The notes beneath the pieces are model-generated. The model did not search any database. It had not been told where the DNA came from and saw only the letters and a list, made by a program, of their open reading frames with translations. Of a stretch of 64,000 nucleotides of DNA, positions 21,901 to 63,312 are shown one piece after another. A program made the translations under genes and the position numbers. Within the stretch, counting starts at the first letter, position 1, and every line of letters begins with the position of its first letter. The stretch is taken from positions 15,066,001 through 15,130,000 of the forward strand of contig OZ024762.1 in NCBI GenBank assembly GCA_964016885.1, read 5' to 3'. This DNA comes from Eledone cirrhosa (taxonomy: Eukaryota).

Positions 21901-24900
21901 TATGCTAAAGGGTTAAGCTAATTCTCTTCCTAAACCTTTGTCATTTTTCAGGTGGGTCAACTCTTTAGATCCCGGTATTAACTCAAGGCCATTTACTTAT
22001 GAAGAAGATAAATTATTATTGAAATATGTCCAAGAGAATGGAGGTATGTACTAAATTCCTGTATTCCTTATATTTCAAGCGTGAAGGCCTCTCTGGCAGA
22101 GCATCTCTCCACATGTTGCGTTGCTTTATTATCTCCACTGTGAGTTTCAGTGATTTGAGATCAGATTTTCACCACCTCCACCCAGGTCTTCCTTGGTTTT
22201 CCTCTACTGCAGCTTTCTTCCACTGGAATTTCCTGGTACTTCTTCACTCAGCAATCACCATCTATACACATCACATCATCACCTTCATCGTTTAACGTCC
22301 ATTTTCCACACTATCATGAGTGAGCCGAGTTGTCCCATGGTATTTGATAAGGACGGTGGATTGGCAGTATCGGTAGAGGGTCGGACGCCATGCTTTCCAG
22401 CATAGTTACGTCCCTTTACGATCTGAGTTCAAATCCCGCCGAGGTTGACTTTGCCTTTCATCCTTACGGGGTCGATAAAATAAAGTACCAGTAATGCACT
22501 GGGTAATTGCTGGCCTTGTGCCTAAAGTAGAAACAGGTATTTGATAATCAGGGAAAGACTTTATGCTCACTCTGTATAATTAATTAAGATGTATAATTAG
22601 TGTCGTTTGACTTTCAGCTGGTAATTGGGCTGCCGTAGCCTCTTTCCTGCCAGGCCGTACCGATCAATTGTGTTCCACCCAGTATTATAGGTTAAAAAAA
22701 TGGCAAGACCAAGCTAATTTTGTAAAGAAGCAATCTGTAAGTTGATCAATATTCTTAAATTTATTGATTTATTTGGTTGTTTGTTGTTTTTATATACAGC
22801 AGGGTCATTATGGAATGAGATGGTTGCGTCATGTGTTGAGGAAGGATGAAAGTGACTGGGTGGGAGGAATAGAGCCAATGATGGATGGTGTGAAGTGGTT
22901 ATAATTACATAAATGTTCAGTATTTATGTATAAATGACATCATCATCCAGTTTTTTATTATGCAGGATACAAATAATCTCTAAGTAGGGGTGGGTCCTGC
23001 CTGACAGTGCTGATTAACGTCACCCTCCATGTGTTTCTGTCCATCGGTCTCATATATAGGATTAAATGTACGAGTGACTTTAGGGAGATAACTATTTACA
23101 GAGACAAATGTAGGATTCGAACCCCGTATTTTGAGATTGGAAAGCAAACTTCTTATTGTAGGAACATGACTGATATAGGAAGTGTGTTATGTGTATGTGT
23201 TTTTATGTGTGTGTGTGTGTGTAAATTTTAAAGTGTTACAGACAGACAGATATATATGAGTCTGGAACTAGCTGTTGAAACGGCAAGAGTTCAGCCATCG
23301 AGTCCCAACTCTTTATAATATATATACACACACACACTTGGCATATTATTATTGTTGATGTTTGTATGACTGAGATAGGTAATGCATTGTGTGTAAATTT
23401 TAAAGAATTGCAGACAGATATACATACATATATATATATATACGAGGGTAATCCCAAAAGTAAGGTCTCCAAAGCGATGGGGATGCAGAGAAACTGTTCG
23501 TACGGCTGTTGGCAACACTGTTGTGATTGGTGCTTCCCTCACTCCCAAACAAACATGCGCGCGCTTCGCTGGGATGCTCAATCTTGGCTTGGCAGCCGTT
23601 GAGAATGGAGCTCCCGTTGTACGCTACCGCCAAGTGCGAATTTCGCGCAGTTATTATATACGAGGGCAATCCCCAAAGTAAGGTCTCCTTCCGAGGAAAA
23701 CATGTGTAAAGATCGGCGGATCACTCTGGATGCTCTCTGCATTTTGGTTCCCGAGGTTTCCCGAAGCTCCATCCACAGGATTTTAATGGAAAAGTTGCAA
23801 TATTGGAAGGAGACCTTACTTTTGGGATTGCCCTCATATATATAAAAACTCAAGGGTAAGATATTGTCTAGACAAATGTATCCACATTATGCATGTTTGT
23901 ACAAATTATACAGGCACAATGGTATAAGAAGATCTGAAAGAAAGGATGTTATAAGATTGATTATATATATATAGATAGATAGATAGATGCATTGCCAAAT
24001 ATTAACCTTTATTTTTGTCAGACAATATAATTAATTACTTTACGTGTTAATCAATATTTTAATACATATATATATATATACAAACCACACATGGTACATT
24101 ATTAAGGTTGATTGTTAATAACTTCATGTAAAGTTTAATTTACTAAAGTGTTCTTCTTCTTCTTCAGGATGAATCTAAATCTTACTTCATGACTGACTTT
24201 GATGCCAGTAAATATGCTGACTTAGTTGAGGCTGGCAAATCTTTAGATGTGAGTTTTATTAATCTTCTCCTTAATCATATATATAGTATTAATAAATATA
24301 TTTATACTATATGTTTAATATACAATTATAAATATGGAGGGTAGTACTAAGTACTAACCGGTTACCGGTATGATAAAAGGCTCAATGCAAAATATCAAGT
24401 ATTTTACAGAGCTGAGATACAAAGTGTTAAAACAATTAAATCTTAGTTTAATACATTTATTTGCTGACAATTGTTTCTTCCAGAGGGATGTCTGGAATCA
24501 TCAGAGCATAGGGAATGTCTAAACGGGTGATTAAAACAGTTGATTGTCTTATATATATATATATATATATATATATATATATATATTTCGTTTCTGAATT
24601 TGTTTAGCAAGATTCTTTATCTGAAAACGTGTGTTGAAACCGATATTGTTATACTTTGGGAGGGTCATGTTGCCAATAAGAAACACACGCACCAATTGCT
24701 TTCACTTCAATTTATTATAATAAGTTTATAAATTTAGGAATTTATAAATTTCCGGCTGGTTGGTTGGTTCCACAACCAGATGGTTCTTTATATATTGTCA
24801 AAGTTCTTTCGTCATACATTCTGTGACCTCTTCAGTGACTAGGGATTCTTTTCTTTGTTTTTGTGCCTCTCCTTTGTTCTGTCCAACGCCATCTTGTTTC

Positions 24901-62178: not shown

Positions 62179-63312
62179 TACAAAGTGTTAAAACGATCAA
62201 ATTTTAGTTTAGAACATTTATTTGCTGACAATTCTTTCTTCCAGAGGGAAGTCTGAAATCATCTGAGCATAAGGAATGTTGAAACATGTAACTAAAATCC
62301 TAGTCATTTAGAACATTTAGGGTACATAATTGTTATTAGTGTCAAAGGCGTCATGTGGAGAGTCAGGAGTTAAAAATATGTTCTGTTTGAAAGAACACAA
62401 TTACAGGCAGCACTGGTTGGAAGTGTAATAGGTATAAGTAAAAAGCACAAGCAAAAAAAATACAGGCAAAAAAGTTATAAGCAAGGAAAATTGGTGTACA
62501 ATGCAGGAGTCAATAGAGTCAATAAGGCATGTGTTAGGAAAGAGTTATAATGCAGTTGAAATAAACATATTTTGTGTGGGGTGTTAAAGCATGTTATAAT
62601 TGTTATAAATGTTTAAGATAGTGTGCAATTTGTTAGAGAGGCATGTGATGATAATTTAGGTATTTGTTATGTAAGGTGTAATGCAAAGCACGTGATAGAG
62701 TTGGGTATGTGATTTTCATTTAAGTGTTTTTGTGTTGTAGTTTGTATGTATGTGTATGTGTTGTTTGTTACAGCTATTAACCGTGGGATTATTTTGAGTC
62801 GTTTATAGTCAATAGGTGTTTGTTTGTTAAATGTAAATTCCGCCGAATTACTGGCCATGTTGTTATTTTAGGTATATTATTTTATGCATTTTTTATCTAC
62901 AAATTATCTTTTCTAGAGTTTGTATTAACCGTTATAACGTTATAACGGTTAATACAAACCCTAGAAAAGATAATTTGTATCAGTGCTGCCTGTAATTGTG
63001 TTCTTTCAAGCAGAACATCTTTTTAACTCCTGACTCTTCTCATGATGCCTTTGACACTAATAACAACTATGTACCCTAAATGTTCTAAATGACTAGGATT
63101 TTTTTACATGTTTCGAAATTCCTTATGCTCAGATGATTCCAGACTTCCCTCTGGAAGAAACAATTGTCAGCAAATAAATGTTCTAAACTAAAATTTGATC
63201 GTTTTAACACTTTGTATCTCGGCTCTGTAAAACACTTGAAAATTTGCATTGAGCCTTTTGTCATACCAGTAACTGGCTAGTACTTAGTACTACCCTACAT
63301 ATTTATAGTTAT
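62179..63312. mobile_element. Inverted-repeat ribozyme-bearing element; related copy at about 24320-24540
   Basis: 62179-62415 is inverted at 62981-63216; internal palindrome 62898-62979; TA-rich flanks. Confidence 0.65.
63126..63172 (+). ncRNA. Hammerhead motif of the same family as 24462-24508, core mutated to CAGATGA (mirror copy on - at 62223-62269)
   Basis: TGCT-CAGATGA-TTCCAGA(CTTCCC)TCTGGAA-GAAAC-AATT-GTC-AGCA-AATAAA. Confidence 0.6.

What the first reader, a model, noticed from the sequence alone, without database searches (positions are those of the whole stretch)
24320..63312. Recurrent design: fold-back elements with outward-reading hammerhead ribozymes beside (TA)n, in several unrelated families
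Seen: at least four mutually dissimilar sequence families (24462/62223/63126; 48646/48849; 53475/53751; 53965) carry stem I-CTGANGA-stem II-GAAA-short stem III-NTH-stem I. Most are followed by AATAAA, and three occur as long head-to-head palindromes adjacent to TA microsatellites. No RT or GIY-YIG ORF is recognisable in them. Known: minimal type I hammerheads with a palindromic loop III typify Penelope-like element termini and cleave as dimers, and such elements often form inverted repeats. Inference: these are non-autonomous palindromic ribozyme retroelements that prefer (TA)n. Either strand yields the same RNA, which could dimerise in trans or fold into a long dsRNA that masks the ribozyme and feeds ADAR or Dicer.
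Basis: partly seen in the sequence, partly recalled or inferred. Interest (0 to 1): 0.82.

Follow-up and report, generated by a model that had tools for sequence, protein, structure and literature searches.

The report
Penelope-like retroelement ends with minimal hammerheads
Four unrelated repeat families here carry hammerhead-ribozyme-shaped motifs and sit, often as head-to-head pairs, inside TA repeats, which is likely the ordinary and already described footprint of truncated Penelope-like jumping genes rather than a new kind of palindromic element.

Summary
The motifs are real: 6 intact-core hits against a shuffle mean of 0.05. The fold-backs and TA flanks are there, with no Penelope-type ORF. 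For a fifth family (E), independent reads show two fixed, TA-joined ends about 75 nt apart. Minimal hammerheads, opposite-strand pairs 100-700 bp apart, head-to-head inverted truncated copies, one-sided tails and (TA)n targeting are all published for Penelope-like elements (PLEs). Single-arm copies and variable inversion points argue that the palindrome is remade at insertion and is not the mobile unit. Cleavage, expression, ADAR/Dicer use and the protein-coding partner are untested. Small new points: tails two to four times the published 30-40 nt, 2-5-nt TA microhomology at the short end, and family E, which seems to keep only half a hammerhead. This scan noted the same pattern on another genome (e1-7882047). 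New members of a known kind; interest 0.25.

The parts
24286..24549 (-). Family A single-arm copy (A1) with tail, between a short TA run and (TA)18
24462..24508 (-). Minimal type I hammerhead A1, intact core, palindromic helix III region
48513..48953 (.). Family B head-to-head fold-back; one-sided tail of about 90 nt on the left; 9-nt central spacer; (TA)n at both ends
48644..48709 (-). Hammerhead B (left arm); extra base before helix II, G10.1-C11.1
48847..48912 (+). Hammerhead B (right arm)
53097..53286 (.). Family E fold-back (not in the first report): GAAA + 5-bp helix + GUC but no CUGANGA; 80-nt one-sided tail; two fixed TA-joined ends in other copies
53327..53854 (.). Family C head-to-head fold-back; 99-nt one-sided tail on the left; (TA)n at both ends
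53475..53529 (-). Hammerhead C (left arm), intact core
53751..53805 (+). Hammerhead C (right arm), intact core
53869..54104 (-). Family D single-arm copy between (TA)7 and (TA)31
53965..54025 (-). Hammerhead D, intact core, 3-bp helix III
62181..63346 (.). Family A head-to-head fold-back; centre near 62938; ~480-nt deletion in the right arm; 132-nt one-sided tail on the right; (TA)n at both ends
62223..62269 (-). Decayed hammerhead A2 (core mutation, broken helix III pair)
63126..63172 (+). Decayed hammerhead A3 (core mutation)
50830..50950 (+). Family E single-arm copy ending at the far (tail) end, then TA
23258..23313 (+). Diverged family E single-arm copy ending at the short end, TA-like sequence on both sides
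24587..24916 (-). Insert between two TA runs with a decayed hammerhead-like motif near 24835; fails my descriptors
   Evidence: read by eye

Best explanation
These are likely the 5'-truncated terminal repeats (pLTR ends) of several unrelated Penelope-like retroelement (PLE) families, whose minimal hammerhead motifs, TA-flanked ends and one-sided tails are in the sequence, and whose head-to-head pairs were likely formed anew during each insertion. Inferred mechanism: a PLE RT/GIY-YIG protein encoded elsewhere nicks both strands of a (TA)n tract. Each 3' end primes reverse transcription on element RNA, one at the far end and one at an internal site 46-54 nt past the hammerhead cut site, helped by 2-5 nt of TA pairing. 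The two short cDNAs meet, or one snaps back, at a small inverted repeat. The result is short arm, centre, long arm plus tail, with both hammerheads reading outward. The hammerheads are predicted to be weak and to need dimerisation through helix III or protein help; they are carried along uncleaved, and some have decayed.
For: Shown here: non-chance motifs; TA runs at both ends of 5 of 5 A-D insertions; one-sided tails of 132, ~90, 99 and 80 nt in 4 of 4 fold-backs; cut-site-to-short-end distance 46, 49 and 54 nt in three unrelated families; TA microhomology of 3, 5, 2 and 3 nt (product of per-family null fractions 1.3e-4). Other copies of E end at two fixed TA-joined points: 53174 (3853 raw reads in X18, 107 contigs in X1, 8 in X4, 3 in X5) and 53100/53107 (1174 + 1423 reads; 76, 5 and 2 contigs at 53100). 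Inversion joints vary between copies. Single-arm copies use either end. The four D helix II/loop variants shown keep a pair (G-C to G-U), restore a pair or lie in the loop, and none of the 40 variant rows shown (of 121) hits a core base of C or D. Published: opposite-strand dual minimal hammerheads 100-700 bp apart from truncated PLEs (PMC4209133); inverted 5'-truncated copy, one-sided tail and (TA)n bias (PMC8557442); head-to-head junction palindromes (PMC3846280); both strands cut and extended, two RT start sites defining the tail, ribozyme cleavage dispensable in vitro (PMC11167929).
Against: No RT or GIY-YIG sequence is attached to any copy and no genome was held, so the link to a PLE protein is by architecture only. 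A fold-back with a one-sided extension and 2-nt TA microhomology also occurs in a family with no hammerhead and opposite polarity (54532-55409), so this shape alone is not diagnostic. Three X1 contigs with 13-14 differences cross the centre of E, so some fold-back centres recur. Only 1 of 4 families has G10.1-C11.1. PMC11167929 reports no homology between primer and RT start site.
Confidence: 0.78

Rival explanations
1. One reading: dedicated non-autonomous elements whose mobile unit is the palindrome itself, giving the same RNA from either strand and feeding ADAR or Dicer.
For: No ORF in any copy. Read-through RNAs are predicted to be about 90% paired for B and C. Three diverged X1 contigs cross the E centre. 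E looks like a short defined unit.
Against: Single-arm copies of A, D and E lie in the window. Raw-read depth falls from about 9000 and 3100 to 55 and 80 across the E centre, and most reads continue with other sequence there; mapping to the look-alike arm explains part of the fall. Joints vary. The arms are unequal in all four fold-backs. Both hammerheads of the A fold-back are mutated.
Confidence: 0.07
2. The hammerhead repeats inserted as single copies, and the second arm was added later by DNA repair at a fragile TA tract (microhomology-mediated template switching or fold-back synthesis).
For: 2-5-nt microhomology at the short end. Arms share departures from the genomic majority. Fold-backs also involve non-hammerhead families at 54532-55409, 46002-46587 and 29736-30193. 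An earlier unchecked note reports such a scar (e1-604594).
Against: The short end of E is one predominant site in another study's reads and in another organism, and single copies end there with no second arm (23258-23313). The short end lies 46-54 nt from the cut site in three unrelated families, and polarity is outward in 4 of 4.
Confidence: 0.1
3. The palindromes are chimeras of amplification or assembly.
For: No listed piece spans the centre of C (24 of 24,242 pieces shown).
Against: A's arms differ by 5% plus a deletion. At one paired position of C each arm departs separately from the genomic majority (53613 and 53665/53667). Strand-changing joints occur in runs from other samples.
Confidence: 0.04

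Closest known systems
Minimal type I hammerheads (min-HHR) of metazoan Penelope-like elements (Cervera & De la Pena 2014, PMC4209133)
   Same: Long helix II, short helix I, 2-3-bp helix III with palindromic loop; many dissimilar families in one genome; mostly solo or as opposite-strand pairs 100-700 bp apart without an ORF (here about 150, 230 and 860 bp between cores).
   Different: G10.1-C11.1 plus the extra base after position 9 in only 1 of 4 families (others close helix II with G-U or U-A). No full PLE could be linked.
Inverted-pLTR insertions of EN+ PLEs, especially the microsatellite-biased clades Neptune and Hydra (Arkhipova 2013 PMC3846280; Craig 2021 PMC8557442; Frangieh 2024 PMC11167929)
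   Same: Head-to-head inverted 5'-truncated copy, junction palindrome, tail at one end only, (TA)n target that hides any target duplication.
   Different: Tails of 80-132 nt against 30-40 nt in print; 2-5-nt TA microhomology at the internal start; no partial tandem and no ORF in the window; clade not assignable.
Non-LTR retrozymes (Cervera 2020 PMC7229834; Li et al. 2026, 10.64898/2026.07.22.740005)
   Same: Non-coding, type I hammerhead, thought to be PLE-mobilised and pLTR-derived.
   Different: Retrozymes are direct tandem arrays that make circular RNA; here there are single or inverted copies only.
Naiad PLEs (Craig 2021)
   Same: (TA)n target, inverted copies, tail; half-core hammerheads are noted in some families, including an Octopus one, which recalls family E.
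   Different: Naiads lack canonical hammerheads, and families A-D have them. No sequence link of E to a Naiad was found (a weak test).

Membership tests
PLE-type minimal hammerhead (min-HHR) | Type I topology with CUGANGA, GAAA and NUH | tested here: met
   6 of 8 sites intact, at least one per family A-D; 2 decayed
PLE-type minimal hammerhead (min-HHR) | Very short helix III with a palindromic loop that allows a dimer | tested here: met
   Self-complementary helix III region in 4 of 4 families; the modelled dimer is 9-13 kcal/mol below two hammerhead-folded monomers; free co-fold gives the intermolecular helix III in B, C and D, while A1 prefers another fold
PLE-type minimal hammerhead (min-HHR) | G10.1-C11.1 pair and an unpaired base between positions 9 and 10.1 (typical) | tested here: inconclusive
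   B has both; C closes with G-U; A and D with U-A
PLE-type minimal hammerhead (min-HHR) | Weak self-cleavage as a dimer | not testable with these tools
   needs an in vitro assay
Autonomous EN+ PLE | ORF with PLE RT and GIY-YIG endonuclease in the copy | tested here: not met
   0 GIY-YIG hits in 140 frames; the RT hits belong to other, LINE-like ORFs outside these elements. These copies are not autonomous elements.
PLE-derived insertion (pLTR remnant) | Terminal sequence homologous to a PLE with an ORF elsewhere in the genome | not testable with these tools
   no genome held; exact-motif scans of non-animal collections were empty
PLE-derived insertion (pLTR remnant) | Inverted 5'-truncated copy, head to head | tested here: met
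   A, B, C, E
PLE-derived insertion (pLTR remnant) | Tail at one end only, from two fixed RT start sites | tested here: met
   4 of 4 fold-backs; fixed ends in other copies shown for E only; length 80-132 nt exceeds the published 30-40 nt
PLE-derived insertion (pLTR remnant) | (TA)n target bias (Neptune/Hydra/Naiad type) | tested here: met
   TA at both ends of 5 of 5 A-D insertions; 4 of 5 have a run of 5 or more TA within 220 nt of a cut site, P about 0.01 against the 0.22 local null
PLE-derived insertion (pLTR remnant) | Partial tandem (direct pLTR) arrangement | tested here: inconclusive
   none seen in the window; not required of truncated copies
Non-LTR retrozyme | Direct tandem units each with a hammerhead | tested here: not met
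   no tandem array holds a descriptor hit
Non-LTR retrozyme | Abundant circular RNA | not testable with these tools
   no RNA run was offered
Naiad PLE | Absence of a canonical hammerhead | tested here: not met
   families A-D carry one; E alone lacks the 5' core

The most novel reading that the evidence does not exclude
Family E is a defined ~135-nt non-autonomous retroelement, the most deeply covered of the three families laid on reads, that has dropped the CUGANGA half of its hammerhead but kept the substrate half (GAAA, helix III with a palindromic loop, GUC, helix I strand) and is cleaved in trans by the RNA of its Penelope-like partner: a natural split hammerhead coupling a parasite to its helper. 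It is primed at (TA)n by short microhomology at two sites about 75 nt apart.
Probability: 0.07. Interest if true: 0.7.

Novelty: new member of a known kind. Interest (0 to 1): 0.25.

Why it matters
As described it matters little: every main feature is in print for Penelope-like elements. Its use is as a compact natural test set for an open question, how PLEs make inverted copies and tails. Four unrelated families show the same geometry (short end 46-54 nt past the cut site in three of them, TA microhomology, tails much longer than the 30-40 nt in print), and this gives exact RT start sites to test in vitro. If the host is a cephalopod, as I recall from its SINE-like repeats but did not test, the fold-backs are candidate editing substrates, though not shown to be special among the many inverted repeats here.

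Tried and rejected
No whole genome was held, so no search for an autonomous partner. Rfam gave no hammerhead, twister or HDV family: 150 of 160 rows shown for the window, 45 of 45 for 53097-54104, 8 of 8 for 24284-25030. I do not count this against the motifs, since minimal forms may fit those models poorly. Exact-motif scans found nothing in metagenome contigs, viral contigs or prokaryote genomes; these collections are not expected to hold the host. No RNA holder listed, which says nothing on expression. Four short family motifs were absent from the text of the Craig 2021 supplement; long runs there are cut and what I saw was protein, so the test is weak. Read pile-ups at 53227, 53457/53460, 53744/53747 and 53960 coincide with AATT sites, and I rejected them as RAD-library cuts. 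The excess of A>G and T>C differences comes from DNA or unrecorded runs and is not editing. Single-motif folding z-scores were modest (-1.1 to -2.8 for the family motifs) and were not used as evidence. E as a twister (lead from e1-7769516): no Rfam hit and no match by eye. AATAAA as a poly(A) signal: no A-tail in any copy, and the element ends lie about 40-180 nt further on, so left open. Motifs at 24835(-) and 24958(+) fail the descriptors and were not counted.
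Full report
Setting. The window is repeat-rich animal DNA with many minisatellites and TA tracts, a selenocysteine tRNA, WSC-domain frames and LINE-like RT fragments. No genome was held. Its abundant SINE-like repeat looks cephalopod to me; that is recall, not a test.

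Observation. A type I hammerhead descriptor (helix I of 4 bp or more, CUGANGA, helix II, GAAA, short helix III, NUH) gave 4 hits against 0 in each of 100 dinucleotide shuffles. Allowing an unpaired base before helix II, a published feature of these motifs, gave 6 hits against a mean of 0.05 in 200 shuffles: A1 (24462-24508, -), B (48644-48709, - and 48847-48912, +), C (53475-53529, - and 53751-53805, +) and D (53965-54025, -). These are four independent insertions. The families share no more than short matches. AATAAA follows or overlaps helix I in 7 of 8. Pfam found no GIY-YIG and no RT inside these elements among 140 frames (all of 85 aa or more outside tandem arrays, and 35 aa or more within the elements). 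The helix III region is self-complementary in all four families. The free co-fold of two B motifs is the double hammerhead, C and D form the intermolecular helix III, and A1 prefers a competing fold. These are predictions, not cleavage data.

Every A-D insertion has a TA run directly at both ends (5 of 5). Each fold-back is lopsided: the short arm stops at TA while the long arm runs on for a tail of 132 (A), about 90 (B) or 99 nt (C) before its own TA run. The short end lies 46, 49 and 54 nt past the predicted cut site in these three unrelated families, and there the element shares 3, 5 and 2 bases with the TA run. A fifth family, E (fold-back 53097-53286; single copies 50830-50950 and 23258-23313), has the same layout, with an 80-nt tail and 3-nt microhomology. 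The product of the four per-family null fractions for the microhomology is 1.3e-4. B's arms are identical apart from one outer mismatch and a 9-nt spacer, C's differ at 4 of 216 positions, all within 28 bp of the centre, and A's are 94.9% alike with a ~480-nt deletion in the right arm.

Other copies. 16 of 20 listed runs, from 12 studies, hold part of 53327-54100; none is on record as RNA. I laid 4 of the 20 on 53097-54104: X1 (possibly the window's source), X4 (same study), X5 (another organism) and X18 (raw RAD reads, another study, same species label as X1). X18 gave 35,098 reads, most 90-99% alike, so C, D and E are many-copy families. Of 941 loose-end rows 24 were shown. They give two ends for E, both continued by TA repeats: 53174 (3853 reads in X18; 107, 8 and 3 contigs in X1, X4, X5) and 53100 (1174 reads, plus 1423 at 53107; 76, 5 and 2 contigs). 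This is the two-start-site pattern that defines the PLE tail. For C, the tool cut reads at the TA runs, and the only support is a contig starting at 53424/53425 in two samples. Of 47 joints 15 were shown; they link different positions in different copies (for example 53152, 53168 and 53185 to 53230; 53442 to 53778; 53932 to 53995). Against a clean picture, three X1 contigs with 13-14 differences cross E's centre, so that centre recurs, and no shown piece crosses C's. Of 121 variant rows 40 were shown: none hits a core base of C or D, and the D changes in helix II keep or restore pairs or fall in the loop (one of these is from the indel table).

Family E. Its three window copies keep GAAA and a short helix with a palindromic loop, followed by GUC in two; the third has AUC and a mismatch at the base of the helix. 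None has CUGANGA. Upstream, the read consensus holds for a few bases and then agreement is about 0.5; in X4 and in the 23258 copy TA repeats follow almost at once. E may therefore be a defined short element with half a hammerhead, or not a ribozyme at all: an alternative hairpin is its predicted fold and Rfam offers nothing. This is the one unexplained item.

Mechanism. Shown: motifs, TA flanks, lopsided arms, fixed ends for E, variable joints. Inferred: a PLE protein nicks both strands of (TA)n, both ends prime cDNA on element RNA (one at the far end, one internally with TA pairing), and the truncated cDNAs join or snap back at a small inverted repeat, leaving hammerheads that read outward. 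One strand of a fold-back carries only one sense hammerhead, and a read-through RNA is predicted to be about 90% paired for B and C, so cleavage in cis is unlikely. Nothing here shows transcription, editing or small RNAs. A1 lies antisense within a putative intron (by eye). The main rival is repair-driven inverted duplication at fragile TA tracts. It fits the microhomology and the hammerhead-free fold-back at 54532-55409, whose C2H2 frame reads inward, but not the fixed ends or the constant spacing.

Comparison with print. Cervera & De la Pena 2014 (PMC4209133; main text parts 1-2 of 4, supplement part 1 of 3) describe minimal hammerheads in many families per genome, mostly as solo copies, and dual motifs about 100-700 bp apart on opposite strands, attributed to truncated PLEs, with low activity even as dimers. 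Craig 2021 (PMC8557442; passages, sections 11 and 15, supplement searches) gives the inverted 5'-truncated copy, the 30-40-bp one-sided tail, and microsatellite bias ((TA)n in Naiad and Hydra; the bias is also mentioned for Neptune). Arkhipova 2013 (PMC3846280; parts 1-4 of 5) reports head-to-head junction palindromes and proposes self-priming. Frangieh 2024 (PMC11167929; parts 1-2 of 4) shows both strands cut and extended, two internal RT starts that define the tail, and cleavage dispensable for insertion. Li 2026 (bioRxiv 10.64898/2026.07.22.740005; parts 1-3 of 5) and Cervera 2020 (PMC7229834; passages) cover tandem retrozymes, which these are not. I saw passages of PMC6765202, PMC8969392 and PMC13282606 (recently active Penelope families in Octopus vulgaris, no mention of hammerheads in the main text; supplement listed, not read). 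Lunse et al. on dimer cleavage I saw only as a citation. Seven searches turned up no description of these particular families and no report of tails above about 40 nt in the texts I read. Subscription papers, Repbase and unread supplements may hold either.

Verdict. The copies are not autonomous PLEs and not retrozymes. They work like PLE terminal remnants and are most likely such, with the link to a protein-coding partner untested. An earlier unchecked note of this scan reached the same reading on another genome (e1-7882047); I had stated mine before seeing it. Novelty: new members of a known kind. Interest 0.25.

Noticed in passing
54532-55409 (relative at 63450-63935): About 800-bp fold-back, 97% alike, next to (TA)10, with no hammerhead. 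A C2H2 zinc-finger frame reads inward, so it is tail-to-tail, with a 76-nt one-sided extension. It looks like an internally deleted LINE derivative; its outer part resembles an RTE 5' UTR (recalled).
   Followed up: partly
52228-52313 (-): Selenocysteine tRNA gene, 77.7 bits against a gathering score of 47.
   Followed up: no
55411-57846 (-) and 57965-58876 (+): LINE with endonuclease and RT split into two halves on opposite strands, as in a 5'-inverted insertion; part of it is duplicated at 47694-48074 (97.6%).
   Followed up: no
46002-46587 and 29736-30193: Further palindromes built from abundant SINE-like repeats; the first has a 68-bp inner hairpin at 46226-46391.
   Followed up: no
24168-24248 and 25163-25283 (+): Two putative in-frame exons with canonical splice sites, read by eye; copy A1 and two decayed hammerhead-like inserts lie in the intron between them.
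   Followed up: partly
24946-25017 (+): Tiny hairpin with CTGATGA on both strands beside (TA)14, followed by a decayed hammerhead-like 3' half; fails the descriptors.
   Followed up: partly
42557-43348 (-) and 44233-44802 (-): Two frames with WSC domains (E 1.2e-21 and 1.1e-05).
   Followed up: no
9478-11005 and 58980-60503: Two 96% identical copies of a LINE-like 3' part whose ORF joins RT to a PHD finger.
   Followed up: no
15164-15710: Six tandem 91-bp units that resemble a tRNA-like SINE head and match dispersed copies at 28277 and 40355.
   Followed up: no
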